64,000 nucleotides of DNA from a virus, in IMG/VR virus record IMGVR_UViG_3300045141_000130, positions 9,358 through 73,357 of that record; one strand, given 5' to 3'. How positions within the stretch are numbered: the stretch's first letter is position 1; every line of letters starts with the position of its first letter. This document shows, piece after piece, positions 24,601 through 52,918 of this stretch. Under the pieces are notes generated by a model, which was not told the origin of the DNA, searched no databases, and saw only the letters and a program-made list of their open reading frames with translations. A program made the position numbers and the translations under genes.

Positions 24601-25961
24601 TAGTACCAGGTCGATCCGCTCGGTCCGGCCGGGCCGGTCGTGCCGGTGGCACCTGCCGGGCCCTGCGGCCCGGCACCACCCGTCGTGCCGGGCGGGCCCT
24701 GGATCCCCTGACTGCCGGTCGGCCCGGTCGGGCCGGTCGGGCCCGGGTCGCCCTTCGTGCCGGTGCCAGCCGGGCCGATGTCGCCCTGTGGTCCCTGCGA
24801 GCCAGCCGGGCCGACAGGCCCGAGCGGTCCCTGGTCGCCGGTCGGCCCTGCGGCGCCCGTCGCACCGGTGGTGCCTGCCGGGCCGACCGCGCCCGCGTTG
24901 CCCTGCGCGCCGGGGGGGCCGATGGCGCCGGTGGCGCCGGTGGGGCCGGTGCTGCCCTGCGGGCCGGTCGGTCCTGCCGGTCCGGTCGCCCCCGGCGGGC
25001 CGACGATGACGCCCGCGTCCACCCACTTGGTGCCGTCCCACACCCACAGGTGGCCGGTGTCGACGGTGATGTAGGCGACGCCCGTCGAGGTGGCGTCCAG
25101 CCCGGCGGGCAGCGACGCCTGGTTGGGCACCGAACCCTTGATGTTGACACCGGTGCCGGGCGCACCGGTAGCCCCGGTCGGACCCTGCAGGCCGGTCGGC
25201 CCGGCAGGGCCCTGCACACCGGGATCGCCACGAGGGCCCTGGGTGCCGACACTGCCGGTGGCGCCCTGCGGACCTTGGGCCCCGGTCTGCCCGGTGGTGC
25301 CGGGCGGCCCGGCCGGTCCCTGGACGCCCGTCCCGGTGGCGCCGGTATTGCCCTGCGGCCCCTGGGCTCCGGTGCTACCGGTCGGCCCGGCAGGACCGGT
25401 CGCACCCGGAGGCCCGAGTGGGCCGACCGGACCTTGCGAGCCGGTCGGCCCGGCAGGACCTGTCACGCCCGGAGGGCCGGGCACCGGGGCGACGACCCGC
25501 GAGACCTGCATCAGCGTGGCGGGCGCCGGGACCGTGCCCTGCTGGGTGACGGTGCCGGTGTAACGGCTCATACCCGCGGCACCGGCCGTCACCACCGTCG
25601 CCGCGGTGATCACCATGACGAAGCCCTCGCGGACCGGGTCACGCACCACCAGGTACTCGCCGACCTGGGCGTCGGCGCTCCACATCACGCCGTGGAAGTC
25701 GGTGTGGTGCAGATAGACGTCGACGACGGAGTTGAGGGGGGCGTTGCTCGGCACCACGCCGACCTGGCCCGTCGCGGGCGCCTGATTGTTTGCGACGTAG
25801 CCCCACTGGCCGGACTCGACGGTGTTGCCGGGAGGGCCGATGGGGCCGTTCGGGCCCTGCAGGTTACCGGCCAGTACGGGGTTGTTGGCCGAGTCCAACG
25901 GATTGATCGCGTAGCCCAGTGCACTGCGCATCGGGCCGATCAGTGTGGGCGCCGCCATCAC
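21630..25961 (-). CDS. Collagen-like tail fibre protein
   Basis: 1443 aa with extensive Gly-X-Y repeats, interrupted by GSxWxxG..[13 protein letters not shown] modules. C1q/TNF-like beta C-terminus. Confidence 0.85.
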
Positions 25962-41081: not shown

Positions 41082-41226
41082 AGAGATATGCGTTGCGGCG
41101 TGCCCAAAAACAGGGCCGCCGGGGCCCACGGAGCAGATCTCCGTGGGCCCTTCCCATATCGGGGCGCACACCCACAAGCCGTCCGGCTCACCCCGGGCGG
41201 CTTTCGTGTCTGGAGAGGACACTGCA

Positions 41227-41850
41227 ATGTTCAAGTTCCACCGCAGCAACGGCAAGCACGTCGCCGCCGAGCACACCTGCCCGCTGGCCGTCACCCTCCC
41301 CACCGTCGGCCGCCACGTCGACGCCCGGACCACCGCGAAGTTCATCGTGGCCGGTGCCAAGGTGCAGGCCGAGGCGATCATCGCCGAGGGCAAGGCGCAG
41401 GCCGAGTCGGTCCTCAAGGCCGACGCGGAGTTGCGCGTCAAGCTGGCCCAGATGACCGCTGACGCCAAGGCCGAGGCTGACGCCAAGGCCAAGGCGCAGC
41501 GCGACGCCCAGAGGGCGGCGGACAACGCCATCGCCGACTGGCGCTACGAGGCAGCCCGCGCCGACCGCCGCGAGCGCAAGCACCAGGTGCGTCTTGCCAA
41601 GGCGCAGAACGCCACCGCGGCGATGAGGGCCGCTGCCGACGAGAAGATCGCGGCGTTCAACGCCCAGGCCGCGAGCGCGGCAGCCGCGAACGACACGATC
41701 GACCTGGCCTTCCAGGCGAGCGAGATCCAGATGCTTGCCGAGCAGGTTGCGAAGCTCGCTGGTGACCTGGCTGCCAAGCAGGTCGAGAAGGACCTCGCCG
41801 ACCTGGCGATCCAGCACCTGATCGACCGGACGGTCCCTGCGGCCGCCTGA
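41227..41850 (+). CDS. Ala-rich coiled-coil hypothetical protein (first early gene)
   Basis: ATG after GGAGAGGA. 207 aa, starts MFKFHRSNGKHV. Confidence 0.75.
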   Translation: MFKFHRSNGKHVAAEHTCPLAVTLPTVGRHVDARTTAKFIVAGAKVQAEAIIAEGKAQAESVLKADAELRVKLAQMTADAKAEADAKAKAQRDAQRAADNAIADWRYEAARADRRERKHQVRLAKAQNATAAMRAAADEKIAAFNAQAASAAAANDTIDLAFQASEIQMLAEQVAKLAGDLAAKQVEKDLADLAIQHLIDRTVPAAA

Positions 41851-41990
41851 GACTTGGCGTGGCACGGCACGGCTGGGCTTGGCCTGGCGTGGCGTGGCCG
41901 GGCAAGCCATGGCTTGGCAAGGCATGGTTTGGCTGGGTCCGGCCTGGCAAGGCACGGCGCGGCAAGGTAAGGGTCCCTCGCAAGGGGGAC
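41851..41990 (+). repeat. GGY-NN pentamer array 1 (24 units) plus GCAA-loop hairpin; putative guide RNA
   Basis: GACTT GGCGT GGCAC GGCAC GGCTG...GGTAA GG, then GTCCCTC-GCAA-GGGGGAC. Confidence 0.92.
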
Positions 41991-42115
41991 AAGTAGTACC
42001 CGCAATACAGCAGCCCCCCAGCATCCGTGCTGGGGGGCTGCTGGCGTTTTTCGGCGTATTACCCCCAGGCCAACCGGTCTGGGGTCCCTGCGTTTCTCCT
42101 GAGAGGAGAAAGCAG

Positions 42116-42484
42116 TTGAGCGACACCAGTGGTATCCAGCCCTTCTTCCAAGGCCTGGGGTCCTACCTCGGCGACTACGTCCGCCAGGCGACCGAAGCGT
42201 CCTCCTTCCACGTCGGTGACGGGGTGCGCTACCACGGCTCGAAGGTGGCCGACCACGGCTACTGGAGAGTCCAGGCCGTCCCCGGCAATGGGACGGTCGA
42301 GATCGGGCGGCGCGGGGAGCGCCGGTACCTGGTCGTTCGGCCGCAGTCGATCGACAACCTCCGCGACGAGGTCTGCCGACACTGCGACGCTGCCGAGGTC
42401 TGGCACTACGCGATGCGCGTCGACGACATCGTCGACGGGGATCTGCCGGTGCAGGACCTCTGCTACTCCTGCGAAAACAGGTAG
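42116..42484 (+). CDS. Hypothetical protein (SH3-like plus Zn ribbon)
   Basis: TTG start after GAGGAG. FHVGDGVRY, CRHC..CYSC. Confidence 0.6.
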   Translation: MSDTSGIQPFFQGLGSYLGDYVRQATEASSFHVGDGVRYHGSKVADHGYWRVQAVPGNGTVEIGRRGERRYLVVRPQSIDNLRDEVCRHCDAAEVWHYAMRVDDIVDGDLPVQDLCYSCENR

Positions 42485-42500
42485 CAAACAGCAGCAACGC

Positions 42501-42561
42501 TTCAAGCCCCCCGGCCGCTCGGCCGGGGGGTTCCTGCGTGTCTGGAAAGGACATGGCAATG
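42501..42561 (+). repeat. 61-bp hairpin+RBS leader repeat, copy 1
   Basis: 57/61 identical to 43028-43088. Confidence 0.85.
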
Positions 42562-43017
42562 AGCAACACCAAGAAGCACCGAGGAAGGTTCGCCTTCCTC
42601 CTGGCGGGCATCATCACGGCCCTGCTGATCGCGTCGGCGTTCAGCGTCGGGTGGGTGTCCAACGCGGCGCCCGACCCGGTGCTGAGGCCGCAGCCCGCCG
42701 TCACCGTGCTGACCCACACGGTGCCCACCACCGTGCCCACCACCGTGGTCCACACCCAGGTGGAGACGCAGACCAAGACGGTGACGCGGGTCAGCGCCTA
42801 CTGCGCGGCGGCCATCGCGGATGCCGACGGCATCCAGGCCGAGTGGCTGCAGGTCGCCACCGACATGGGCAACGCCACCTCCGACATGGTCTACGGGGGG
42901 GCGAACGCCGCCAGCAACAGCGAGGTCGAGTCGGCCACCGCGCTGTTGAAGAAGTTGAACGACACCGACATCCCGCAGTACACCGCCGACAAGATCAAGT
43001 GCCAGGCGGGCGAGTAG
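42559..43017 (+). CDS. Membrane-anchored/secreted protein
   Basis: N-terminal basic stretch plus TM helix, Thr/Val-rich stalk, two Cys. Confidence 0.72.
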   Translation: MSNTKKHRGRFAFLLAGIITALLIASAFSVGWVSNAAPDPVLRPQPAVTVLTHTVPTTVPTTVVHTQVETQTKTVTRVSAYCAAAIADADGIQAEWLQVATDMGNATSDMVYGGANAASNSEVESATALLKKLNDTDIPQYTADKIKCQAGE

Positions 43018-43027
43018 CACTCGCAGT

Positions 43028-43088
43028 TTCAAGCCCCCCGGCCGACCGGCCGGGGGGTTCCTGCGTGTCTGGAAAGGACACTGCAATG
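43028..43088 (+). repeat. 61-bp hairpin+RBS leader repeat, copy 2
   Basis: TTCAAGCCCCCCGGCCG-AC-CGGCCGGGGGGTTCCTGCGTGTCTGGAAAGGACACTGCAATG. Confidence 0.85.
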
Positions 43089-43661
43089 CCCACAGAAGTT
43101 CAGCAGTTGAAGGCCGAGCTTGATGCCCTGCGTCTCCGGGTCATCCGGCTTGAAAGCACCACCCGGGGTATGCAGCGCGGCATCACGGCGCTGAAGGCGG
43201 TCGACAAGCCCGACCTGTCGGTGGTCGACTCCCCGGACGTCGAGCACATGGTCAGCCGTCTCGCCGGTGACCTGGCGAAGCGCCTGGGGCTGACCGACAT
43301 CACCCTCACCCCGGAGCAGCGGGAGGCGGAGGTCCAGTCGCGCCGCGACATCGAGCTTCGCGGGCTGCGGGTCGTCAACGAGCAGCTGCTCGCCGAGAAT
43401 GCGAAGCTCCGCGGCGACATCGAGTACCTGCGCAACGAGGCGTCCAGGCTCCGCGGGCTGAAGCTCACCGCCGAGGACGCCCTGGCCAACGATCAGCATG
43501 TGATCGAGGCGCTGCGCAAGGAACTCCGGCAGTTGACGGCCGAGACGATGCGCAGGGTCAACGCCGACAGGCTCGTCACCGAGGCCCCGGTCCTGACCGA
43601 CCCGTGGGAGGGTCTGACCGACCGGCAGCCCCGCAGCCACGGCAAGCCGGTCCGCGGCTGA
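43086..43661 (+). CDS. Coiled-coil hypothetical protein
   Basis: Start MPTEVQQLK after GGAAAGGA. Confidence 0.7.
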   Translation: MPTEVQQLKAELDALRLRVIRLESTTRGMQRGITALKAVDKPDLSVVDSPDVEHMVSRLAGDLAKRLGLTDITLTPEQREAEVQSRRDIELRGLRVVNEQLLAENAKLRGDIEYLRNEASRLRGLKLTAEDALANDQHVIEALRKELRQLTAETMRRVNADRLVTEAPVLTDPWEGLTDRQPRSHGKPVRG

Positions 43662-43867
43662 TGAACCCCTACGAGCAGGTCAGCTTCCGCCTGGCCGTCG
43701 GCGACGTCGTCCACCTGTTCCTGCCCCAGTCGAAGCTGACCGGGGTGGTGGACAGGATCGAGCTTCGCCTCGGCGGGCTCGACTGGACCCGGATCCACGT
43801 ACGGGTCGACGCGGACGGCGTCACCCGCGAATACCCCGTCGGGATGGTCTTCCCGGCGGGCTGCTAG
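43661..43867 (+). CDS. Small SH3-like hypothetical protein
   Basis: MNPYEQ..LAVGDVVHL. TGATG coupling. Confidence 0.6.
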   Translation: MNPYEQVSFRLAVGDVVHLFLPQSKLTGVVDRIELRLGGLDWTRIHVRVDADGVTREYPVGMVFPAGC

Positions 43868-43881
43868 TCCGCAAAAAGCGG

Positions 43882-43913
43882 TACAATGGAGGAGTCGCGT
43901 TGCGGCGTGCCCA
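43882..43913 (+). promoter_or_regulatory. Second early-promoter-like element
   Basis: TACAAT followed by GCGTTGCGGCGTGCCCA, the same 17-mer as at 41090-41106. Confidence 0.6.
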
Positions 43914-43999
43914 CTTTCGGGCCGCTGCGGCGCGATTTCTCGTTTCACCCCCCGGCGACCGTCGGGGGTTTCTTCGTTTCTCGGGAAAGGGAAACAGCA

Positions 44000-44116
44000 A
44001 TGAACGTCCCAGCGCACCACCTCAGGACCGGCCTGATCGTCGCCGTGGTCATGGCGATCATCACCGCGATCTGGGCGGCCGTGTTCGGCCTCGGCCTGAA
44101 GGAGAAGCAGTCGTGA
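44000..44116 (+). CDS. Small membrane protein
   Basis: 38 aa with a TM helix, after GGAAAGGG. Confidence 0.55.
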   Translation: MNVPAHHLRTGLIVAVVMAIITAIWAAVFGLGLKEKQS

Positions 44117-44313
44117 TCAGGATCTTGGTCGTCCTCTTCATCATCTGGGTCTTCGGCGATAAGGACCGCCCCGCCGAGCGCAACAACGACTGACGCATTC
44201 GGCGGGGCCCGGTTTCGACCGGGCCCCTGCCGTGGGTGCCAGTCACACCCAAACGGCCCCCCAGCACTCCCGCTGGGGGGCTTACTTCGTTCCCACGAAA
44301 GGGGAACAGCACC

Positions 44314-44643
44314 ATGAGCAACGCATTCACGCAGTACTGCCAGGCCCTCGGCAAGGGTCTGGGCCAGGGCACCACGGCGACCTGGCGCCAGACGAACACC
44401 CTGGCCGGGTTCGCCCAGGTCGTCCTCACCCCGATGGCCATGCGCCCCGCGGTGCTGGTGGGCAACCTGGCCACCAACGTGGTGATCCACTCCACCACGG
44501 CGTTCAAGGAGACGGCAGCGGTCCGCAAGGCCGCGGCGCCCGTCGCCGCCCTGCCCCAGGCGGCTGCCGCAGCCGCTGGCGCCCAGGCCCAGCCTGGGGC
44601 GATCTTCATCGTCCCGCCGGTCAAGACGGCCAGCGGGTCCTGA
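44314..44643 (+). CDS. Hypothetical protein
   Basis: Start MSNAFTQY after GAAAGGGG. Confidence 0.65.
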   Translation: MSNAFTQYCQALGKGLGQGTTATWRQTNTLAGFAQVVLTPMAMRPAVLVGNLATNVVIHSTTAFKETAAVRKAAAPVAALPQAAAAAAGAQAQPGAIFIVPPVKTASGS

Positions 44644-44709
44644 AGTACCGCCGGGGGGCCGCCTGGCCCCCCGGCACCCTTCGTTCCCACAGAAAGGGGA
44701 ACTTGCACC

Positions 44710-45039
44710 ATGTCCACTCCATCAACACCCACCACCGGCCCGGTCACGCTCATCCCGGCCGGGTCCATCGAGTGGGGCGTCATCCAGCAGAACGCCAAGG
44801 ACGTCGTGGCGTTGCGCGCCGAGGTCGCCCTCCTCAAGGAGGCCAAGGAGATCCGCGACCGCCGCATCTCCTGGCTGGAGTCCACCCTCGGCGAGAAGAT
44901 CGCCGAGGTGGTCGCCCTGCGTCGGGAGGCCGCAGTGGCCGGGCTGTCGCTCGACCGCTACCGCGGGCTGATCGACAGCCTCGCCGCACTCAGCAAGGCG
45001 CAGTCCCCGGAGACGGCCGCACCCGCGGCTGCCTCCTGA
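44710..45039 (+). CDS. Coiled-coil hypothetical protein
   Basis: GAAAGGGG RBS, 109 aa. Confidence 0.65.
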   Translation: MSTPSTPTTGPVTLIPAGSIEWGVIQQNAKDVVALRAEVALLKEAKEIRDRRISWLESTLGEKIAEVVALRREAAVAGLSLDRYRGLIDSLAALSKAQSPETAAPAAAS

Positions 45040-45107
45040 TCGACACCGTGGGGCGGGGAGCGCATCCCCGCCCCACGGCCCCAACCCACCAACTCCAAGG
45101 AGGAGTG

Positions 45108-45461
45108 ATGCGCAACCCGTTCCGCAGCAAGGCTGTCGCGTTCGACCCCGAACCGTGGCGGCCCGGTGAACTGTTCACCGAGTACCGCGCCGTCGTCAGT
45201 TCGTTCGACGACGACAAGCAGTTCCCGATCGTCTCGGTGTTGGCCGCCAACGCCGAGCAGGCCCAGCAGGCGATCACCCACGCGGTGAACGCCAAGGCGC
45301 TGGAGATGGGTGTGAGCATGGACTACCTGCAGGTCCAGATGCTGGCCTCCCCGGAGGTCGTCCGGGTCTGGAACCAGGACATCAACACCCGGTCGTGGGG
45401 CGTGTTCGCCACGCCCGCCAACCACGCCGCCATCGAGGCCCCGAAGAGGAAGGCCTCCTGA
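45108..45461 (+). CDS. Hypothetical protein
   Basis: Start MRNPFRSK after AAGGAGGAG. Confidence 0.7.
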   Translation: MRNPFRSKAVAFDPEPWRPGELFTEYRAVVSSFDDDKQFPIVSVLAANAEQAQQAITHAVNAKALEMGVSMDYLQVQMLASPEVVRVWNQDINTRSWGVFATPANHAAIEAPKRKAS

Positions 45462-45916
45462 TGACGACCCCCCGGCGGAAGCTCCCCAAGATCAACCCCG
45501 CCATGGCGATCGCCGGGGGGATCGGCATGGGGGGACTTGCCCCGGTCCGCCCCCGCCGGTCCCTGGGGCGGGTCAAGGACGCGGCGTTCCAGCCCGTGGA
45601 GCGCAAGTACGTGGACGTGTCCGACAACCCGCAGTGGCTGGCCCTGGAACCCCAGCTAGACAGGGCACGCAAGGCCGTGGAGCGCTGGGAGGACAAGGAG
45701 GTCGACGCCAACACCGCCATGCGAGAGATCGCGGGCGACCAGGATGTCGAAGGCCTCCGGTTCCGCCTGTTCCACAGCCACCCGCAAGGTCCCGTCAACC
45801 TGGAACTGCTGGCCGCCCACTTCGGCGTCAGCATCGGGTTCCTCGACAGGTTCCGGGACCCGCGGCGGCACAGCGTCACCATCCAGCGCATCGTCGGGCG
45901 GAGGCGGAAGCGATGA
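45461..45916 (+). CDS. Hypothetical protein
   Basis: TGATG coupling, GAGGAAGG RBS. Confidence 0.6.
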   Translation: MTTPRRKLPKINPAMAIAGGIGMGGLAPVRPRRSLGRVKDAAFQPVERKYVDVSDNPQWLALEPQLDRARKAVERWEDKEVDANTAMREIAGDQDVEGLRFRLFHSHPQGPVNLELLAAHFGVSIGFLDRFRDPRRHSVTIQRIVGRRRKR

Positions 45917-46134
45917 CCGAGCACGTCTACACGGTCACCATCACCCACCTCACCCTGGAGGCGAAGGAGGCCGACGCGATGATGACGACGGCCATCGAGG
46001 CGCTGGGCGGCATGCTGTACGAGTACTCCGGGGGCCTGGCGGCGTACGAGGTGACCGGCTTTCGCCACGGCGACGGCGAGGTCATCGGGTACGTCCACGA
46101 CCCGGACGAGTTGGAAGATGAGGAGGGGACATGA
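45913..46134 (+). CDS. Hypothetical protein
   Basis: Start MTEHVY, ATGA overlap. Confidence 0.6.
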   Translation: MTEHVYTVTITHLTLEAKEADAMMTTAIEALGGMLYEYSGGLAAYEVTGFRHGDGEVIGYVHDPDELEDEEGT

Positions 46135-46469
46135 ACGCCGCCCCCGCTGCCGATACCGGCGGCCTGTGCTGGGAGCAGCTGCCCAGCGACCAGGCCGCCG
46201 CGCTCGTCCTCGTCGACCTGTACCGGGCGCACCTGTCCACCAGCGAGTCCAGCCGCCGCTACCGCATCGTGGTGGCGGCGTACAACCAGTGGCTGGGCGC
46301 CGTCAAGGTGATGGGCTTCGTCTGGCACCGCAGTCCCGACGACATCCGCGATGCGGTCATCGACACCGTGATGGCCGTCGGCCGGGCCTACCACAGCGAC
46401 GACAAGGCGCAGTGGCAGGACCGGGCGATGTACGGCGTGCTGGGAAAGCTGCACCTGCACGACGACTGA
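46131..46469 (+). CDS. Hypothetical protein
   Basis: GAGGAGGGG RBS, 112 aa. Confidence 0.65.
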   Translation: MNAAPAADTGGLCWEQLPSDQAAALVLVDLYRAHLSTSESSRRYRIVVAAYNQWLGAVKVMGFVWHRSPDDIRDAVIDTVMAVGRAYHSDDKAQWQDRAMYGVLGKLHLHDD

Positions 46470-46479
46470 CGCAGTCTCT

Positions 46480-46502
46480 GGCCCACCCTTCGGGGTGGGC
46501 CA
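46480..46502 (+). terminator. Hairpin, terminator candidate
   Basis: GGCCCACCC-TTCG-GGGTGGGCC with a T-run shortly downstream. Confidence 0.5.
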
Positions 46503-46619
46503 GGGGTCTGCGATTTTTTGCGTTTCCGGGGAAAAGATGATCTTGAACCCTCCGATTGGTGTCGGAGGGTCGATTCATGCTGTCCGGAACCACCGGCAGC
46601 ACCCGAAAGGAGGGCCGCT

Positions 46620-47975
46620 GTGACAACAGCGAGTCCCGAGCGCATCGGAAATGCGCACACCGCAGTAGCGCGAGGTGCCGAGTTCGGCGACATCCTCGCG
46701 TTGCTCAACAAGCAGCAGGCCAGGAAGGTCGACATCGTCATTCCTGGCAGCAAACTGCTCGTCCGGGACGGCATGCTCGTCGTCGCCGACGACGTCGTCG
46801 ACATGAGCGACGAAGGGGTGACCCGGGTCGGCGGCGAGTATTGGCCCACCACCTGGTTCGACGCCCACGTCGCCGAACGGTTGGACATTCCTGTTGCCTA
46901 TCTGCGCCGCCTGCGCAACGGCAGGGAGATCGTCGGCACCAGGGGTCGCAGCCGCACCCTCGGCCCGCGACTGGACCTGTACGACAGCAACGTCAACGGG
47001 TTGTTCCGCGGCAACGACGACGTCCCGCCGGACCTGCGGAACTTCTACGCCCGGCTGCTCGTCCCCGACGACCAGGACACCAACGGCATCGCCTACGCGC
47101 TGATGTCCTCCAAGTACTGGAGGCTGGACAACTACGACGCGATCATGGCCACCCTGTCCGGCATCCGCAAGGCCGGGATCGACCCGCTGTCGTTGCACAT
47201 CTACGGCGACCTGTCGGAGACGAAGCTGTACCTGCACGTCCACGCGCCGCAGGTGCTCACCGCCGCACCCGAACTGCTGCGCAACTACCGCAGCCCGTTC
47301 GACATCCAGGGCGAGGCAAGCAAACGCCAGGTTCCGGCCTACACGCTGGAGCAGAGGGTGGCCATGGGCCGCCAGTGGCGGGAGACCCACCGGCTGGACG
47401 AACACATCCAGCCCGGCTCCGAACCGCTCGTCCACTCCGGTTTCCTGATCACCAACTCGGAGATCGGGCAGGGCCGCTGGTCCATCCAGAAGGAGATCGT
47501 CTTCCTGGCGTGCACCAACGGGATGACCTTGACGGCGGGCCGTTTCGAGCGGCGGCACGTCGGCAGCGACCAGGAGGAGGGCCAGGTCGAATGGTCGGCG
47601 GAAACCCGTGACGCCGAGTTGCAGTGGATCGTCTCCTCGACCGCCGACATCGTGGCCGATGCGCTCAACCCGGAATCCCTGGAGAACACCGTCACCGCCC
47701 TGGAGCAGAAGGCGGGGCGCACCGTGGACGACCCGCGACGCACCATCGCGGTCGTCGCCCAGAAGCACCTGTTCAACAAGGACGAGGAGGAGGCGATCCT
47801 CCGCCACTTCGAGTTGGGTCAGGCCTTCACCAGTGCCGGTGTGGCGCAGGCCATCTCGTCCGTCGCCCAGATGTACGAGGACCCGGACCGGGCGCACAAG
47901 CTGACCGACGCCGCCATCCCCGCGATGGAACTCGTCCACTCCCTGAGAAGTACCGGGAGTCGGGCATCCCTCTGA
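46620..47975 (+). CDS. DUF932-family protein
   Basis: GTG after AAGGAGGG. AERLDIPVAYLRRL, ALMSSKYWRLDN, GFLITNSEIGQG, FLACTNGM, ERRHVG. Confidence 0.78.
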   Translation: MTTASPERIGNAHTAVARGAEFGDILALLNKQQARKVDIVIPGSKLLVRDGMLVVADDVVDMSDEGVTRVGGEYWPTTWFDAHVAERLDIPVAYLRRLRNGREIVGTRGRSRTLGPRLDLYDSNVNGLFRGNDDVPPDLRNFYARLLVPDDQDTNGIAYALMSSKYWRLDNYDAIMATLSGIRKAGIDPLSLHIYGDLSETKLYLHVHAPQVLTAAPELLRNYRSPFDIQGEASKRQVPAYTLEQRVAMGRQWRETHRLDEHIQPGSEPLVHSGFLITNSEIGQGRWSIQKEIVFLACTNGMTLTAGRFERRHVGSDQEEGQVEWSAETRDAELQWIVSSTADIVADALNPESLENTVTALEQKAGRTVDDPRRTIAVVAQKHLFNKDEEEAILRHFELGQAFTSAGVAQAISSVAQMYEDPDRAHKLTDAAIPAMELVHSLRSTGSRASL

Positions 47976-48356
47976 GACCTGGCAAGGCCGGGAGAGGCCG
48001 GGCGAGGCATGGCTAGCTTTGGCACGCAAGGGCGAGGCTTGGCTTGGCTAGGCGTGGCAAGGCGTGGCTAGGCGGGGAATGGCAAGGCGAGGTATGGAAT
48101 GCCGAGGCGGTGCATGGCCGGGCTAGGCCAGGTTCGGCGCGGTATGGCTCGGCAAGGCATGGCGAGGCTCGGTTGGGTCGGCCATGGCGAGGCAAGGCTA
48201 GGCGAGGCGCGGTGTGGCAAGGCGGGGTTCGGCAAGGTCAGGTTCGGCGTGCTCCGGTTTGGTATGGCCAGGTCGGGCTAGGCACGGTCGGGTCCGGTTC
48301 GGCGGGCCTGGGCATGGTATGGGCTCCCCGTAAGTCCCTCATTTGGGCCGGGGAGC
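47976..48356 (+). repeat. GGY-NN pentamer array 2 (69 units) plus UAAGU-bulged hairpin; putative guide RNA
   Basis: GACCT GGCAA GGCCG...GGCAT GGTAT GG in unbroken 5-nt register 47976-48320. Hairpin 48323-48356. Confidence 0.93.
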
Positions 48357-48391
48357 AAACAACAAATCCCTTGAGAGGAAAGGATTTTCGC

Positions 48392-48802
48392 ATGACAGGA
48401 GGACCATCAGACGGGGCGTACGAAGTCCTGAACACGATGCTTCACGACATGCTTCACAGCCCGGGGGCGCAGGCCACGTTCAACATGGACACGCCGATGG
48501 CGACACTCATCGACACGTTCGATCTGGCCTTGCCGCCGGACTCCGACGAGAACTTCACCTGCGATCTGTGCGACCAGGTACACCGGGAGGGCCTGGACCG
48601 CATCGTCACCGCATTCGAGCCTGGCGAGCCACCCACCGACGGCAGCCCCGGGTACGTCAAGATGATCGCCGCCGCGGGCAAGAGCCCCACAGATCTGGCC
48701 ATGGAGAAACTCGACCGACCGAGGGTGATCCTGGTCCTGTACTCGTGCCGCAACTGCTCGCTGGAGATCCAGCAGGGGATGGACCGCCAGGAAACCTTCT
48801 GA
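48392..48802 (+). CDS. Zn-binding hypothetical protein
   Basis: Start MTGGPSD after GAGGAAAGGA. CDLC...CRNC. Confidence 0.65.
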   Translation: MTGGPSDGAYEVLNTMLHDMLHSPGAQATFNMDTPMATLIDTFDLALPPDSDENFTCDLCDQVHREGLDRIVTAFEPGEPPTDGSPGYVKMIAAAGKSPTDLAMEKLDRPRVILVLYSCRNCSLEIQQGMDRQETF

Positions 48803-49226
48803 GACGTGCTGTGGCATGGCGTGACTCGGTGGGGCGAGGCGGGGCATGCTTTGGCGCGGCGAGGCGGGGCTAGGCGTGGCCAGGCACGGCGCGGTTCGGC
48901 TCGGCGGGGCGAGGCGAGACATGGCAGGCCAAGGCAGGGCACGGTGCGGTTCGGCTGGCCATGGCTTGGTGTTGGCACGGCTGGGCTCGGCAGGGAATGG
49001 CTAGGCCTGGTTTGGTGCGGCCGGGAGTGGCTCGGCTAGGCAAGGTCGGGTTAGGCGTGGCTCGGCGTGGCAAGCCTTGGCGCGGCGCGGTGTGATCAGG
49101 TTGGGTGTGCCGCGGTTTGGCTTGGTCGGGTTAGGCGCGGCGTGGCATGACTTGGCTCGGTGTGGCTCGGCATGGAAGGCCAGGGCACGGTTTGGGTTCT
49201 CCGTAAGTCCCTTCGGGCCGGAGAAC
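48803..49226 (+). repeat. GGY-NN pentamer array 3 (78 units, one 6-nt unit) plus UAAGU-bulged hairpin; putative guide RNA
   Basis: GACGT GCTGT GGCAT...GGCAC GGTTT GG. Hairpin GTTCTCCG...CGGAGAAC at 49196-49226. Confidence 0.93.
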
Positions 49227-49280
49227 AAAGGGGGATTGGGGGGGGCGTATACAACCTCGAAACTCTTTGGGAGAACAAGA

Positions 49281-50339
49281 ATGACGAGTACGGAAACACA
49301 GATACGTGCAGTGTCTGACGCACCGTTCGCAATGACGCCGCATTTGTTGCGGATGCTGCGCGAGCGGCCTGTCGGGGTCCAGCGGATCCTGCGCAGGACC
49401 GACACCGGGGAGTTGAGGGCGTTCCTCGACCCCACCGCCGCAGACCAGGGCTTCTGGACCGCCCTCCCCGTCTGGCGTTCGGCGGAATGGCGCTACGACG
49501 ACAGCCGCTGGCTGGCCAGCACCGGCAGCCTGTCGTCGCCGGAGAACCTGGTGGACAACCTCGGCTGGTTCGACGTCCCGATCGTCTGGGCCATCACCGA
49601 GACCCCGTACTTCGCGGAGTTGCTCGCGGCCCGGTCGGACGACACGGTGCTGGTGATGGGTGACCCGCGGGACGGCGAACTGCGGTGCTACAAGGAGCGG
49701 AACTGGGACGAGTACCCCGCCCAGAGCGGCTGGCAGGCGTGGCCGACCGTCCGCGATCCCCTCAACCGGTCCTACGGCCCGGATCTCAACTGGCTGACCC
49801 ACAACTTCGGCGCCGTCTCCCTGCAGCAGGTCAAGGACGCCGGTTTCATCAAGGTGTGGGAGAAGGCCGAGGAGAACCCCATCCTCGTCGAGGTCAACCC
49901 GGAGGTGAACCGGCTGCAACTGCGCATCACCGACCTGGAGTCCACCCTGGCCACTCTGCGCACCCAGAACCAGACGCAGCAGCGGCGCCTGGAGCAGATG
50001 TCCAACGACCACGAGCGGTTCAAGGAGTTGGTGTCCTCCACCGCCACCAAGTACGCCCGGCGGCACGACTGGTGCTCCGTCGTCGACGAGGCGCTGGAGG
50101 AGATGGGACTGGAGAGGGAGCCGGTCAGCTTCAGCGGGGTCATCAGCGTCCGCATCAACTTCACCGCCAACCGCACCGACGGTGAACGTGGCACCCCGAA
50201 CGCCCGTGACGTCAACCGCTGGCTGTACGGCGAGGATGACGTGCGTGAAGCCATCGGCGAGAACCTCAGCCTCGACGAGGATTACGCCGGTGACTTCGAG
50301 ATCGACAGCTACAGCTTCGAGGTCATCTCCACCTCGTAG
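49281..50339 (+). CDS. Hypothetical protein (Trp-rich N-terminus, coiled coil)
   Basis: Start MTSTETQIR after GGGAGA. 352 aa. Confidence 0.72.
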   Translation: MTSTETQIRAVSDAPFAMTPHLLRMLRERPVGVQRILRRTDTGELRAFLDPTAADQGFWTALPVWRSAEWRYDDSRWLASTGSLSSPENLVDNLGWFDVPIVWAITETPYFAELLAARSDDTVLVMGDPRDGELRCYKERNWDEYPAQSGWQAWPTVRDPLNRSYGPDLNWLTHNFGAVSLQQVKDAGFIKVWEKAEENPILVEVNPEVNRLQLRITDLESTLATLRTQNQTQQRRLEQMSNDHERFKELVSSTATKYARRHDWCSVVDEALEEMGLEREPVSFSGVISVRINFTANRTDGERGTPNARDVNRWLYGEDDVREAIGENLSLDEDYAGDFEIDSYSFEVISTS

Positions 50340-50420
50340 TGCGCTACGCAGTAGCAGCCCCCCTGCCACCCGGCAGGGGGGCTTCCTTGTCCGCAAAAAC
50401 ACCTGAAAGGTGGTTCTGCT

Positions 50421-51041
50421 GTGCCAGACGTCGACGACGAAGACCCGTCACGACACACGTACGAGAGCCGGGAGATGGCCGAACGGGAACTGGCGGGCTG
50501 GTTCCCGCCGTCGGTCCCCGAGGAGGCCAAACCGGAACTCATGCGCATCGCCATCGTCGAACACCCCGGGCAGGAACCCCTGCGCACCCTGTGGAGCATC
50601 CACCCGGAGTTCGTCTACCTGACGAACCCCGAACTGTGGATGCTCGTCACCTGGATCACCGGTGACGAGCGTTCCCGCGGCAGCCTCCGCGGGATACCGC
50701 TGCTACTGGTCCAGCTGGCAGCGCTGCGCGATCACCATGTCGCGCTCATCGGGCAACTCAACGAACTGACATCCAACCAGGAGGCAAACACCATGACCGA
50801 ACCCATCAACGTCGACCCCAGCACCGTGATCCATCAGGGAACGATCAGCATCGCCATCGACTTCCGGGCAACCTTGGCGCCCACCGAGTTCCTGGAGGGC
50901 GACGACATCGAGGAGGCGCTGAACAAGTTCGCCGACCTGGAGGCGATCAAGAACGCCATCAAGGCCGCTCCCCGGCTCGACGGCATCTCCATCGAGAGCA
51001 TCTCGTTCGGTGCTCAGGTGGCCAGCTTTTTGACCAGCTGA
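50421..51041 (+). CDS. Hypothetical protein, with a strong internal in-frame start at 50793
   Basis: GAAAGGTGG before GTG 50421. AGGAGG before ATG 50793. Confidence 0.55.
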   Translation: MPDVDDEDPSRHTYESREMAERELAGWFPPSVPEEAKPELMRIAIVEHPGQEPLRTLWSIHPEFVYLTNPELWMLVTWITGDERSRGSLRGIPLLLVQLAALRDHHVALIGQLNELTSNQEANTMTEPINVDPSTVIHQGTISIAIDFRATLAPTEFLEGDDIEEALNKFADLEAIKNAIKAAPRLDGISIESISFGAQVASFLTS

Positions 51042-51047
51042 CCTTCT

Positions 51048-51218
51048 GACGTGGCCAGGGCTTGGCAAGCCGTGGCGGGGTCGGGTCGGCCGTGGCGTGG
51101 CTAGACAGGGCCGGGTTTGGTGTGGCTCGGAATGGTGCGGCGAGCCAGGGTTCGGCTCGGCATGGCATGGCCGGGTTCGGTGAGGTATGGGGCCCCCCAG
51201 CCTTCGGGCTGGGGGGCC
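51048..51218 (+). repeat. GGY-NN pentamer array 4 (~28 units) plus cUUCGg hairpin; putative guide RNA
   Basis: GACGTG GCCAG GGCTT GGCAA...GGTGA GGTAT GG, then GGCCCCCCAGCC-TTCG-GGCTGGGGGGCC. Confidence 0.93.
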
Positions 51219-51240
51219 ATCCTCGTCGCAGGGGGGTTGC

Positions 51241-51429
51241 GGCGAGGCTGGCTGAGGCGCGGCGCGGCGGGGCAGGGTCCGGCTTGGCCAGGCATGGCTG
51301 GGCGAGGTTGGGTGTGGGGTGGTTAGCCGAGGTCCGGCGCGGCTGGCTGGGGTTCGGCGGGGTGGGGCTTGGTCTGGCGTGCCCAGGCACGGTGAGGTAT
51401 GGGGCCCGCCACGGGGGGTGTGGCGAGCC
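51241..51429 (+). repeat. GGY-NN pentamer array 5 (32 units) plus hairpin; putative guide RNA
   Basis: GGCGA GGCTG...GGTGA GGTAT GG, then GGCCCGCCAC...GTGGCGAGCC. Confidence 0.92.
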
Positions 51430-51431
51430 AT

Positions 51432-51789
51432 GGATAGGACTGGCAAGGCTGGACCTGGCGGGGCAAGGTCGGACAGGGCAAGGCGTGGCCTGGTGCGGCT
51501 GGGTTAGGCACGGCCTGGTGCGGCTAGCTTCGGCGGGGCGTTGGCTCGGCATGGCCTGCCGTGGAAAGGTTGGCCGAGGCAAGGCGTGGCAAGGCGCGGC
51601 GAGGTGAGGCCTGGCAGGGCAGGGCGCGGCGAGGCGGGGCAGGCCACGGCGGGGCGAGGTGTGGTCAGGTTCAGGTGGGGTCTGGGTCTGGCGTGGCAGC
51701 GGCTGGGCCAGGCCCGGTTTGGCCAGGCGCGGCGTGGTATGGGCCGCCCGTAAGTCCTTAGCCGCCGGATGCGGCTAAGGCCGGGCGGC
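51432..51789 (+). repeat. GGY-NN pentamer array 6 (~61 units, four 6-nt units) plus UAAGU-bulged hairpin; putative guide RNA
   Basis: GGATA GGACT GGCAA...GGCGT GGTAT GG. Hairpin 51743-51789. Confidence 0.9.
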
Positions 51790-51814
51790 GAAACAAGTCT
51801 TCCTTCCAATCTCA

Positions 51815-51937
51815 GGCTAGGCATGCCGAGCACAGGCATGGCCTGGATAGGTGCGGCGCGCTGCGGTTGGCCGTGGCTCGGCAGGGAAAGGCTTGGCAAG
51901 GCGAGGTATGGGTCCCCAAGGAGAAGCCTTGCGGGAC
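51815..51937 (+). repeat. GGY-NN pentamer array 7 (19 units) plus hairpin; putative guide RNA
   Basis: GGCTA GGCAT...GGCGA GGTAT GG, then GTCCCCAAGG-AGAAG-CCTTGCGGGAC. Directly upstream of the RAMP gene. Confidence 0.9.
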
Positions 51938-51956
51938 AAGAACAAAGGAGCACGCC

Positions 51957-52640
51957 GTGGTTACACGGAGCCGCAGTACCGCAGTGAAGCCGGACCCGGA
52001 GCCGAACGCTCTGGACGGTGATGTGAGCGACTCGGGCAACGCCACGTACGAGGCCAACCGGCCCTTCCGGGCGGCCGTCGAGATCACCGGCGACTCGGTG
52101 ATCCTGTTCCACCGTTGGCAGTCCGACGCGGTCGACGCGAAGGCCGCTGCCGCCAAGGGGTCCCGAGCGAAGAAGACCGATGATGTTGATTCTTACGTTT
52201 GGGAGAACGAGAACGGGGTGCTGTGCCTGCCCGGCGAGTACCTGCGTTGCTCGCTCACCAACCCGCAGAACGGTGCCGCGAAGTACCTTCAGGACCCGCG
52301 GTCCCCCCGCAAGTCGGCCTTGGATTTGTTCAAGGCTGGTGTTGTCAGCCTCACCGACCTGGCCCCGATCACCAAGGCGGACGGCACACCGGCCGAGGGC
52401 TGGGACCACCTGGACCGCCGCCGCGTGGTGGTGCAGAGGTCGGGCGTCACCCGCTCCCGGCCCGCATTCGCCACCGGCTGGAAGGCGGAGATCATTTTGA
52501 TGTCTCTGCTGCCTCAATACATCAGCCCGTCATTGCTGCGGACGACGCTGTCCGACGCTGGGAAACTCGTTGGGGTGGGCGACTTCCGGCCCACCTTCGG
52601 CCGGTTCAGCGTCACGAAGTTTGAGGTCCTCCAGGACTAG
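51957..52640 (+). CDS. Stand-alone RAMP/Cas7-like RNA-binding protein (putative effector of the GGY-NN arrays)
   Basis: GTG after AAAGGAG, 227 aa. N-terminal strand AAVEITGDSVILFH. GVLCLPGEYLRCSL resembles the Cas7-group IPGSSxKG motif. Basic thumb-like DRRRVVVQRSGVTRSRP. C-terminal Gly-rich loop AGKLVGVGDFRPTFGRFSV. Confidence 0.78.
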   Translation: MVTRSRSTAVKPDPEPNALDGDVSDSGNATYEANRPFRAAVEITGDSVILFHRWQSDAVDAKAAAAKGSRAKKTDDVDSYVWENENGVLCLPGEYLRCSLTNPQNGAAKYLQDPRSPRKSALDLFKAGVVSLTDLAPITKADGTPAEGWDHLDRRRVVVQRSGVTRSRPAFATGWKAEIILMSLLPQYISPSLLRTTLSDAGKLVGVGDFRPTFGRFSVTKFEVLQD

Positions 52641-52901
52641 GCGAGGCTGGGCTGGGCATGGCGCGGCTGGGCGCGGCAAGGCCTGGCTAGGAATGGCAAG
52701 CCGGGGCGCGGCTAGGCGAGGCTGGGCGGGGTCAGGTGGGGCTAGGTTCGGCGTGGCATGGCGAGACATGGCTCGGCTGGGCAAGGCGTGCCTTGGCAAG
52801 GCGCGGCGCGGCTGGGAAAGGCAAGGTCGGGTGGGGCCTGGCGAGGTCCGGCCGGGTATGCCGAGGCTCGGTGAGGTATGGGTTTCACCCTCGGGTGAGA
52901 C
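52635..52901 (+). repeat. GGY-NN pentamer array 8 (49 units) plus hairpin; putative guide RNA
   Basis: GACTA GGCGA (overlapping the TAG stop)...GGTGA GGTAT GG, then GTTTCACC-CTCG-GGTGAGAC. Confidence 0.93.
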
Positions 52902-52918
52902 GAGAAGTATTGGCCTGC

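What the first reader, a model, noticed from the sequence alone, without database searches (positions are those of the whole stretch)
41851..52879. The array code is readable: NN dinucleotides correspond to codon positions 1+2 of target genes, skipping the wobble base
Seen: removing the GGY triplets and treating each NN as the first two bases of a codon gives, in blocks of about 10-15 units, several well-known conserved protein motifs. Some read in sense and others in reverse-complement orientation (see the separate findings). Inference: the target is NNxNNxNNx, so synonymous third-position changes cannot escape it and one guide can cover a gene family. Long arrays appear to be concatenated multi-target guides. 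Use of both orientations argues for dsDNA rather than mRNA as the target. Caveats: two-base codes are ambiguous (D/E, N/K, H/Q, C/W, F/L, S/R, I/M), motifs were recognised by eye, and many blocks (arrays 6, 7, 8 and much of 2) are not assigned.
Basis: partly seen in the sequence, partly recalled or inferred. Interest (0 to 1): 0.95.

Follow-up and report, generated by a model that had tools for sequence, protein, structure and literature searches.

The report
Phage VIPR guide arrays, code confirmed
This soil phage carries a VIPR system, a recently described CRISPR-like RNA-guided DNA silencer, and its repeat arrays really do spell the first two bases of codons in genes of rival genetic elements.

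Summary
The window (a complete 73-kb soil virus) holds 8 strand-specific arrays with 368 GGY-NN pentamers. Each array ends in GGUAUGG plus a hairpin. The arrays flank a 227-aa Cas7-like protein that is homologous to Vipr of phage SUSP1 (profile E 1.9e-45).

Three 2026 bioRxiv preprints describe VIPR systems. In these, the NN dinucleotides pair with dsDNA while skipping one base, usually the codon wobble base.

I tested the rule on this locus:
- The block at 51316-51395 matches motif I of real N6-methyltransferase genes in 22 of 30 HMM-selected actinobacterial loci. It does so only at a 1-nt gap, in frame, in sense orientation.
- The block at 48261-48315 matches IHPEGRVYRWI of primase-polymerase homologues in antisense orientation (11/11 units; 22/22 bases in four metagenome loci). 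The phage's own primase differs at two codons.
- An AlpA/excisionase block is partly supported.
- The NYN block and the array-1 self-match are not above chance.

About 87% of units remain unassigned. What is unusual is the array length: 19-78 units per tail here, against 9-16 published. No vap gene was recognised.

Verdict: a new member of a known kind.

The parts
51957..52640 (+). vipr gene (227 aa): single-RRM RAMP / Cas7-like protein, expected to polymerise on the pentamer repeats
   Evidence: phrog_4652, E 3.8e-13; no Pfam hit. AlphaFold model: pLDDT 89.9, pTM 0.80. Best Foldseek PDB hits are Csm3, type VII Cas7 and Cas7-11, E 4e-6, prob 1.00, TM about 0.47. A profile built from 81 family members hits SUSP1 Vipr YP_009199429.1 over its full length, E 1.9e-45.
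41851..42000 (+). array 1 (24 units, 41851-41970) plus tail GGUAAGG and hairpin; starts at the stop codon of ORF 41143-41850
47976..48360 (+). array 2 (69 units, 47976-48320) plus tail GGUAUGG and hairpin; starts at the stop codon of ORF 46620-47975
48261..48315 (+). tail-adjacent guide block; its reverse complement reads IHPEGRVYRWI (Prim-Pol motif)
   Evidence: Protein level: 11/11 units in P0003, 10/10 in P0020 and P0028. Real maximum 11.0 against at most 8.5 in 100 shuffles. DNA level: 22/22 bases in L278, L279, L282 and L283, at a 1-nt gap only. That locus set was chosen by a pattern overlapping the motif.
48171..48215 (+). internal block of array 2, sense WR(I/M)(D/E)(K/N)Y(D/E)AV; candidate guide against an allele of the gene just upstream (phrog_1362 family)
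   Evidence: 9/9 units in P0121, the 99%-identical cluster representative, which reads WRMDNYDAV. The window's own gene reads WRLDNYDAI and matches 15 of 18 bases by my reading. Score 9.0 against a shuffle maximum of 8.0 in 40 shuffles. Borderline.
48803..49230 (+). array 3 (78 units, 48803-49193) plus tail GGUUUGG and hairpin; starts at the stop codon of ORF 48392-48802
51043..51222 (+). array 4 (29 units, 51043-51188) plus tail; starts after the stop codon of ORF 50421-51041
51054..51113 (+). 5' block of array 4, sense SFKVGRRVVY(S/R)R; candidate guide against the AlpA / HTH_17 excisionase wing
   Evidence: 17/20 bases on an HTH_17 ORF (L290:403-669) that lies next to a Prim-Pol gene. 10/11 units in P0127; GRRVVYR in most of the 49 homologues. 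Score 8.5 against at most 7.0 in 200 shuffles. The database was chosen through the partial match.
51232..51430 (+). array 5 (34 units, 51232-51400) plus tail
51316..51390 (+). tail-proximal guide block of array 5, sense VYDPACGSGGFLVQT (motif I of N6_Mtase / HsdM-type methyltransferases)
   Evidence: 25/26 bases in L172. 22 of 30 HMM-selected actinobacterial N6_Mtase loci score 15 or more at a 1-nt gap, all in frame and in sense; 0 do so at gaps of 0, 2 or 3; the shuffle maximum is 15.0.
51403..51795 (+). array 6 (67 units with 5 phase slips, 51403-51740) plus tail with nested hairpin
51815..51940 (+). array 7 (19 units, 51815-51909) plus tail, just upstream of vipr
52640..52905 (+). array 8 (48 units without a phase slip, 52640-52879) plus tail; starts in the vipr stop codon
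34438..34470 (-). own primase-polymerase codons 156-166 (LHPEQRPYRWI); they differ from the guide at Q160 and P162
   Evidence: In the 27 of the first 30 listed family members where my regular expression found the motif, all except the window's own cluster (P0001) read HPEGR at this place.

Best explanation
This is a VIPR (Viral Interference Programmable Repeat) system of a tailed soil phage.

How it most likely works: the eight + strand arrays are transcribed as vrRNAs. The 227-aa Vipr protein polymerises along them, one protomer per pentamer. It holds each GGY and exposes each NN. The exposed dinucleotides pair with one strand of double-stranded target DNA while every third target base is skipped. 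In coding targets the skipped base is the wobble base, so synonymous changes cannot escape and one guide covers many members of a gene family. Binding silences transcription of the target.

Shown here, in silico only: (1) the anatomy; (2) homology of the protein to SUSP1 Vipr and to the Cas7 fold; (3) conservation of the tail motif; (4) two guides that obey the 1-nt-gap, codon-phased rule on real genes, one in sense orientation (N6-adenine methyltransferase motif I) and one in antisense orientation (Prim-Pol motif IHPEGRVYRWI).

Taken from the preprints: filament formation, dsDNA binding and silencing.

Inferred: the natural targets are rival mobile elements carrying AlpA plus Prim-Pol, and methyltransferase-bearing defence or mobile genes, in an actinobacterial host.
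For: Anatomy:
- 368 units in 8 arrays, + strand only.
- 8 of 8 arrays end in GGU(A/U)(U/A)GG with a hairpin starting at nt 8. SUSP1 vrRNAs end in the same GGTATGGG plus hairpin.

Partner protein:
- The DNA pattern (GGCNN)7GGC alone pulled at least 119 viral contigs.
- 85 of the 119 encode one homologue of the 227-aa protein. It lies on the array strand in 83 of 85, mostly 0-100 nt from an array.
- The model has a Cas7/Csm3 fold.
- tblastn to phiSUSP1 gives 40.5% identity over 74 aa, E 4e-4. The family profile hits SUSP1 Vipr with E 1.9e-45.
- The GGY-contact residues named in 10.64898/2026.04.26.720927 (section 5 read) are H17, R138, D177, W178 and R179. They align with H52, R168, D209, F210 and R211 of this protein.

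The code:
- Methyltransferase guide: 25/26 bases, and 22 of 30 loci at a 1-nt gap against 0 at gaps of 0, 2 or 3.
- Prim-Pol guide: 11/11 units at protein level against at most 8.5 in 100 shuffles, and 22/22 bases at DNA level.
- No self-target above background in the phage's own genome. The preprint reports the same for its systems.
- One sense and one antisense guide. A sense-identical guide cannot pair with the mRNA.
Against: - No expression, RNP or binding data exist for this phage. No RNA run holds it.
- Only about 47 of 368 units (13%) are assigned.
- Gapped scans found nothing above shuffles at any gap in 1.24 Mb (own genome plus 132 viral loci) or in 0.56 Mb (related phages plus 28 genomic VIPR loci).
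- NN composition (45% G+C) fits codon positions 1+2 far better than positions 2+3 or 3+1 (by more than 150 log-likelihood units). It does not fit better than a uniform model (-1009 against -998).
- The Prim-Pol DNA set was selected by a peptide pattern that overlaps the motif. The AlpA protein set was reached through the partial match.
- Array length is 19-78 units per tail, outside the published 9-16.
- No vap gene was recognised.
Confidence: 0.9

Rival explanations
1. The locus is a VIPR system, but only the 10-17 units next to each 3' tail act as guides. The long upstream stretches would then be decayed, decoy or merely structural repeats, not concatenated guides.
For: Both strongly validated guides lie next to the tail: 48261-48315 ends one unit before the tail, and 51316-51390 ends two units before it. 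Across 85 Vipr-bearing loci the longest in-phase run has a median of 14 units (quartiles 12-17), as in the published 9-16. Non-GGY anchors (GCC, GAC, GGA, GCT) are scattered through the long arrays. NN composition is close to uniform.
Against: Two tail-distal blocks have matches at or above the shuffle maxima: AlpA at the 5' end of array 4 and the phrog_1362 allele in the middle of array 2. Long arrays recur in this Vipr clade: 140, 60 and 56 units in L015, L086 and L047. Strict 5-nt phase is kept over 48 units in array 8. The preprint mentions 'staggered arrays with overlapping vrRNAs', but I could not see that figure.
Confidence: 0.3
2. The arrays act on RNA (mRNA of the targets) rather than on double-stranded DNA.
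For: The Prim-Pol guide is complementary to the coding strand and so to the mRNA. Vipr has the fold of RNA-targeting Csm3/Cas7.
Against: The methyltransferase guide, and the AlpA block, are identical to the coding strand in every hit and so cannot pair with the mRNA. The preprints show dsDNA binding and silencing from either strand.
Confidence: 0.04
3. The repeats are not guides at all. They would be a period-5 binding platform or sponge for a multimeric RNA-binding protein (as with TRAP and its GAG/UAG repeats), or a G-rich structure (two-tetrad quadruplexes, R-loop-prone DNA), with the NN carrying no meaning. This was my own first reading.
For: GG recurs every 5 nt, on one strand only, in 3' UTR positions. 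NN composition is near uniform.
Against: NN blocks match real gene families only at a 1-nt gap and in codon phase, far above shuffles. The partner protein is a Vipr homologue.
Confidence: 0.02

Closest known systems
VIPR system of Escherichia phage SUSP1 (type II VIPR; bioRxiv 10.64898/2026.04.26.720920, 10.64898/2026.04.26.720927, 10.64898/2026.10.15.759431)
   Same: Both have a homologous Vipr protein (profile E 1.9e-45) and GGY-NN pentamer arrays on the vipr strand on both sides of the gene. Both arrays end in a tail that begins GGUAUGG followed by a hairpin. Both use 1-nt-gap, codon-phased matches in either orientation, with no self-target. Both target genes of rival mobile elements: an excision function and replication genes.
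   Different: Here there are 19-78 units per tail, against 9-16 in SUSP1, and 368 units spread over 11 kb. Five arrays start at the stop codon of a protein gene. No vap1 homologue was found. The genome is high-G+C and probably an actinobacterial phage, not an enterobacterial one. One guide reads the catalytic motif I of N6-methyltransferases, a target class not named in the parts of the preprints that I read. The supplements were closed, so I could not place this locus among types I-VII or compare it with the 'staggered arrays'.
Class 1 CRISPR backbone (Cas7 / Csm3 filament on crRNA)
   Same: Both have the RAMP fold with a G-loop and a thumb (Foldseek E 4e-6 to Csm3, type VII Cas7 and Cas7-11). 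In both, one protomer binds per RNA repeat unit and base pairing is interrupted periodically.
   Different: There is no repeat-spacer array and I saw no other cas gene in the locus. The period is 5 nt with 2 paired bases, instead of 6 nt with 5 paired. The guide information sits inside the repeats. TM is only about 0.47 and sequence identity 7-15%.
TRAP (trp RNA-binding attenuation protein) and its (G/U)AG repeats spaced by 2-3 nt (recalled, not tested)
   Same: Both have a fixed triplet plus a variable spacer at a period of about 5 nt on one RNA strand, bound by a protein oligomer one unit per subunit.
   Different: TRAP is an unrelated ring protein whose spacers carry no information. Here the spacers match target genes.

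Membership tests
VIPR system | Vipr protein: a single-RRM RAMP homologous to the characterised SUSP1 Vipr | tested here: met
   Foldseek finds a Cas7/Csm3 fold. tblastn to phiSUSP1 gives E 4e-4. The family HMM hits SUSP1 YP_009199429.1 with E 1.9e-45, residues 1-189.
VIPR system | Residues that hold GGY (SUSP1 H17, R138, D177, W178, R179) | tested here: met
   By alignment these are H52, R168, D209, F210 (aromatic in place of W) and R211. R168 and R211 are at least 90% conserved in 81 sequences. H52 and D209 are invariant in the 8-sequence set. The link to the SUSP1 numbering goes through the HMM alignment, not a direct pairwise alignment.
VIPR system | vrRNA arrays of alternating GGY / NN pentamers beside vipr, on its strand | tested here: met
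   8 arrays, 368 units, + strand only.
VIPR system | Conserved structured 3' tail after the repeat tract | tested here: met
   8 of 8 arrays have GGU(A/U)(U/A)GG plus a hairpin from nt 8. The stems differ in sequence. SUSP1 has the same GGTATGGG.
VIPR system | 9-16 repeats per vrRNA (as described for the characterised clades) | tested here: not met
   This locus has 19-78 units per tail. The median of the longest run in 85 other loci is 14. The preprint says array architectures vary among types, so this is a described property rather than a strict criterion.
VIPR system | Targets read by the 1-nt skip rule, with the skipped base at the codon wobble position, on either strand | tested here: met
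   Two guides: N6_Mtase (sense) and Prim-Pol (antisense). Both match only at gap 1, in frame, and above shuffles.
VIPR system | vap accessory gene next to vipr | tested here: inconclusive
   blastp at E 1e-5 finds no similarity between the window ORFs and SUSP1's downstream gene, or the 162-aa downstream gene shared by 16 loci. In the window, vipr is followed directly by array 8.
VIPR system | vrRNA expression, Vipr-vrRNA RNP formation, dsDNA binding and silencing | not testable with these tools
   No RNA holder is listed. The virus is known only from metagenomes.
CRISPR-Cas | Repeat-spacer array and cas operon | tested here: not met
   Rfam finds nothing at gathering score. Tandem and periodic repeats in the locus are 5-nt units only. 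The neighbouring ORFs have no Pfam hit and no functionally annotated PHROG hit; one matches phrog_1362, of unknown function. I ran no dedicated cas gene scan of the whole genome.

The most novel reading that the evidence does not exclude
In this Vipr clade, one tail serves a whole series of guides. The clade comprises the window with up to 78 units per array, and L015, L086 and L047 with in-phase runs of 140, 60 and 56 units. A single long transcript would either carry a very long Vipr filament or be cut into tail-less guides. This would be a multiplexed architecture not yet characterised. The phage would use it for two purposes beyond silencing satellites. First, it would hit the invariant catalytic motif I of N6-methyltransferases, so that type I R-M or BREX-like defence or mobile-element genes of many hosts are silenced by one guide. 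Second, it would hit allelic variants of its own genes (primase; the phrog_1362 gene) as carried by sibling strains, while its own copies escape by two codon changes.
Probability: 0.3. Interest if true: 0.7.

Novelty: new member of a known kind. Interest (0 to 1): 0.45.

Why it matters
It shows that the gapped, codon-phased guide code just described for enterobacterial and Pseudomonas phages also holds in a high-G+C soil phage, where it can be read directly from sequence. It also points to target classes that are easy to test:
- a family-wide guide against methyltransferase motif I;
- a guide against a primase motif from which the phage's own gene has diverged at two codons.

The long single-tail arrays pose a concrete question about how vrRNAs are processed and how long a Vipr filament can be.

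Tried and rejected
Ideas considered and dropped:
- My first idea was a TRAP-like protein platform, a G-quadruplex or an R-loop tract. I dropped it after the protein association, the literature and the gap-specific matches.
- The first HMM iteration drifted onto translated arrays and was discarded. I repeated it with the arrays masked.

Searches that found nothing useful:
- Rfam at gathering score: no hit.
- megablast of 46500-52900 against GenBank phages: no hit.
- tRNA scan: none.
- Gapped scans of the own genome plus 132 viral loci, and of the related phages G006-G009 plus 28 genomic VIPR loci: no excess at any gap.
- HTH_17 (30 loci), NYN (5 loci) and Prim-Pol (9 loci) from five genomes: nothing above shuffles.
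- NYN in 30 more actinobacterial loci: only VIVSGD, 6 units, in 6 loci, at background score.
- The other arrays do not converge on the Prim-Pol-bearing contigs.
- A gap-3 hit of score 17 for array 6 lies in ordinary coding DNA and is a chance hit.
- The array-1 'antisense copy of the upstream gene' (21/30) is reached by 2 of 50 shuffles.
- The own proteome gives no match above shuffles.

Dead ends in fetching sequence:
- The primase has no close relative in viral contigs or in the related phages.
- P0003's contig was found neither in viral contigs nor in metagenome contigs.
- The search for homologous proteins for the phrog_1362 protein gave only 3 proteins.

Sequencing runs:
- No RNA holder is listed.
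- Laying contigs of four soil runs showed the same or related phage, but in pieces too short to study array variation.

Not done:
- I did not search the large collections with gapped NNx patterns. That would mean typing a changed sequence, so all gapped patterns were derived inside scripts and applied only to sequence already fetched.
The type assignment (I-VII), the 'staggered array' figure and the lists of natural targets could not be compared.
- Unpublished genomes G098, G028 and G236 and G130, G028, G058 and G011 enter only the tallies '88 of 251' and '73 of 151'. No locus that I analysed comes from them.

Full report
WHAT IS IN THE SEQUENCE

The window is bases 9358-73357 of a 73,357-bp virus record with direct terminal repeats, rated complete. 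It has 68% G+C. It encodes a portal, a large terminase and tail-fibre proteins on the - strand.

Between 41851 and 52879, and only on the + strand, lie tracts built of 5-nt units: a constant GGC or GGT followed by two variable bases.
- One search finds 13 in-phase runs of 8-48 units there, and only three 5-unit runs anywhere else.
- The pattern (GGYNN)6GGY occurs 75 times forward, 0 times reverse and 0 times in a backwards-read control in the whole genome.
- A parse that tolerates phase slips gives 8 arrays of 24, 69, 78, 29, 34, 67, 19 and 48 units, 368 in all.

Five arrays begin at or in the stop codon of a protein gene. Every array ends in GGU(A/U)(U/A)GG followed at once by a hairpin. The stem sequence of that hairpin differs from copy to copy, but it starts at the same nucleotide in 8 of 8.

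THE PARTNER PROTEIN

Scanning IMG/VR with the bare DNA pattern (GGCNN)7GGC returned at least 119 contigs, from 39 to 76% G+C. Of these, 117 carry arrays on one strand only, and 112 have at least four different NN.

Of all window ORFs, only the 227-aa ORF at 51957-52640 has real relatives in those loci. With the arrays masked, an iterated profile finds exactly one homologue in 85 of the 119 loci. It lies on the array strand in 83 of 85, mostly within 100 nt of an array.

Its AlphaFold model (pLDDT 89.9, pTM 0.80) matches Csm3, type VII Cas7 and Cas7-11 (Foldseek E 4e-6, probability 1.00, TM about 0.47). Pfam has no model for it, and PHROGs files it under phrog_4652, 'unknown function'.

WHAT IS KNOWN

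A full-text search led to bioRxiv 10.64898/2026.04.26.720920. I read its Results, its Discussion and three Methods sections. It describes VIPR systems as follows:
- a ~20-kDa ancestral RAMP protein, Vipr;
- vrRNAs of 9-16 YNNGG repeats capped by a conserved 3' tail;
- NN dinucleotides that recognise dsDNA by a '1 nt skip rule', with the skipped base usually at the codon wobble position;
- targets on either strand, with no PAM;
- natural targets in satellites and prophages.

Three further preprints bear on this:
- 10.64898/2026.04.26.720927 (abstract and section 5 read) gives the filament structure and the GGY-contact residues.
- 10.64898/2026.10.15.759431 (abstract and section 6 read) shows silencing of a satellite recombinase.
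- 10.64898/2026.10.21.760802 (passages read) recovers 99 period-5 clusters.

MEMBERSHIP IN THE VIPR FAMILY

- tblastn of the window protein hits the phiSUSP1 genome inside the gene that sits between GGY-NN tracts (40.5% over 74 aa, E 4e-4).
- A profile of my 81-sequence alignment hits that SUSP1 protein over its full length at E 1.9e-45.
- The GGY-contact residues align with H52, R168, D209, F210 and R211.
- SUSP1's vrRNAs end in the same GGTATGGG plus hairpin.

Two features do not fit the published description:
- The number of repeats per tail is 19-78 here. Across the 85 loci the longest in-phase run has a median of 14, and long runs occur only in this protein's own clade (L015 140, L086 60, L047 56).
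- No vap gene is recognisable.

TESTING THE CODE ON THIS LOCUS

All gapped patterns were built inside scripts from the parsed NN. They were slid over fetched DNA on both strands with gaps of 0-3 nt, scoring +1 per matched base and -1.5 per mismatch and taking the best local segment. Controls were arrays with the order of their units shuffled.

Negative results come first.
- In 1.24 Mb (own genome plus 132 viral loci) the top scores are 15.5, 14.5, 15.0 and 15.0 for gaps 0-3.
- In 0.56 Mb (related phages G006-G009 plus 28 bacterial and archaeal VIPR loci) the four gaps are likewise alike.

So there is no self-target and no target among relatives.

Methyltransferase guide. In N6_Mtase genes found by Pfam HMM, not by motif, the picture is different.
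- In 10 loci from five genomes, the block at 51316-51380 scores 23.5 at gap 1 (25/26 bases, VYDPACGTGGFLV). The other gaps score at most 14, and 10 shuffles score at most 13.5.
- In 30 loci drawn from 251 actinobacterial genomes, 22 score 15 or more at gap 1 and none does so at gaps 0, 2 or 3. The shuffle maximum is 15.0.
- Every hit is to the same block, in the gene's reading frame and in sense orientation. Examples are VYDPACGSGGMFVQ at 26/28 and VYDPCCGSGGMFVQTE at 28/32.

Prim-Pol guide.
- Among 120 homologues of the phage's own primase-polymerase, fetched by homology, the reverse complement of 48261-48315 reads IHPEGRVYRWI.
- It matches P0003 at 11/11 units, and P0020 and P0028 at 10/10. 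The real maximum is 11.0, against at most 8.5 in 100 shuffles.
- The phage's own gene has LHPEQRPYRWI, which differs at two codons.
- At DNA level, four metagenome loci match 22/22 bases with the guide equal to the antisense strand. That locus set was chosen by the tool through the peptide pattern EGR[TVP]YRWI, so its counts are not independent.

Weaker or negative blocks.
- AlpA/excisionase. SFKVGRRVVY(S/R)R at the 5' end of array 4 matches an HTH_17 gene next to a Prim-Pol gene at 17/20 bases. It matches a homologue at 10 of 11 units, score 8.5 against at most 7.0 in 200 shuffles. That protein set was reached through the partial hit, and 30 HTH_17 loci from five genomes gave nothing.
- NYN. 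The NYN reading is not confirmed. Real NYN genes read VIVSGDSDF and share only 6 units with the block.
- Array 1. The array-1 'self-antisense' match (21/30) is at chance level.
- A new lead. Units 40-48 of array 2 read WR(I/M)(D/E)(K/N)Y(D/E)AV. They match WRMDNYDAV in the 99%-identical cluster representative of the gene just upstream (9/9 units, score 9.0 against a shuffle maximum of 8.0). The window's own copy reads WRLDNYDAI. This is borderline and rests on protein sequence only.

COMPOSITION OF THE NN

The NN are 45% G+C in a 68% G+C genome. A codon-position-1+2 model built from the phage's own genes beats the 2+3 and 3+1 models by more than 150 log-likelihood units. It does not beat a uniform model. 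This fits guides, but it does not show that every unit encodes a target.

SURROUNDINGS AND HOST

A related phage, G006 (85% complete, 65-80% nucleotide identity in structural genes), has no arrays and no vipr. So the module is accessory.

The named relatives of the primase and of the AlpA-like targets are Actinomycetota: Thermomonospora, Serinicoccus, Nanopelagicales, Nocardioides and Solicola. The nearest cultured portal relatives are Arthrobacter phages at 46% identity. The DNA occurs in soil metagenomes.

The closest genomic Vipr relatives point elsewhere. They are 48-59% identical, and 18 of 28 lie in Planctomycetota MAGs. The host is therefore probably actinobacterial, but this is not shown.

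VERDICT

The finding is correct and its mechanism is right. It re-derives a system published as preprints in 2026. What this locus adds:
- independent in-silico confirmation of the rule in a distant, high-G+C phage;
- a family-wide guide against methyltransferase motif I;
- a primase guide from which the phage's own gene has diverged at two codons;
- unusually long single-tail arrays whose processing is unknown.

Noticed in passing
window 34438-34470 (-): The phage's own primase-polymerase reads LHPEQRPYRWI. In the 27 of the first 30 listed homologues where the motif was found, all except the window's own cluster read HPEGR. The two deviating codons are exactly those that break the match to the phage's own guide.
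   Followed up: partly
window 47118-47144 and 48171-48215: A block in the middle of array 2 matches WRMDNYDAV in the 99%-identical cluster representative (P0121) of the gene just upstream. The window's own copy reads WRLDNYDAI. This could be strain-level targeting or autoregulation. It is borderline statistically.
   Followed up: partly
L022, L025, L036 and 13 other loci, just downstream of vipr: A gene of about 162 aa directly downstream of vipr is shared by 16 of the 85 Vipr-bearing loci, and a second gene of about 172 aa by 6 loci. They are candidate vap genes. Neither resembles SUSP1's downstream gene or any window ORF by blastp.
   Followed up: no
G006 (L223-L226), a 64,992-bp related phage: It shares structural genes (65-80% nucleotide identity) and the phrog_1362 gene with this phage but has no arrays and no vipr. 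The VIPR region is an accessory module in this lineage.
   Followed up: partly
window 41849-41856, 47973-47980, 48800-48807: Arrays 1-3 begin with TGAGAC. The stop codon of the upstream ORF runs directly into a first, degenerate GAC unit. This suggests co-transcription with the upstream gene.
   Followed up: no
GenBank OR003939.1 (Phage DSL-LC04) 22435-23016: This is the closest GenBank phage relative of this Vipr (54% identity over 90% of the protein). It is annotated there as 'helix-turn-helix transcriptional regulator', which is probably a misannotation.
   Followed up: no
L290:403-669 and 1314-2243: A metagenome contig carries an AlpA/HTH_17 gene directly upstream of a Prim-Pol gene. These are the two gene kinds that the phage's guides resemble, and the layout is typical of integrative or satellite-like elements.
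   Followed up: partly
window 24250-25222 (-): Tandem repeats of period 9, 18 and 27 lie inside the 1443-aa ORF 21630-25961. They may be collagen-like repeats of a tail protein. The neighbouring ORF 26688-28730 hits tail-fibre and collagen-like PHROGs.
   Followed up: no
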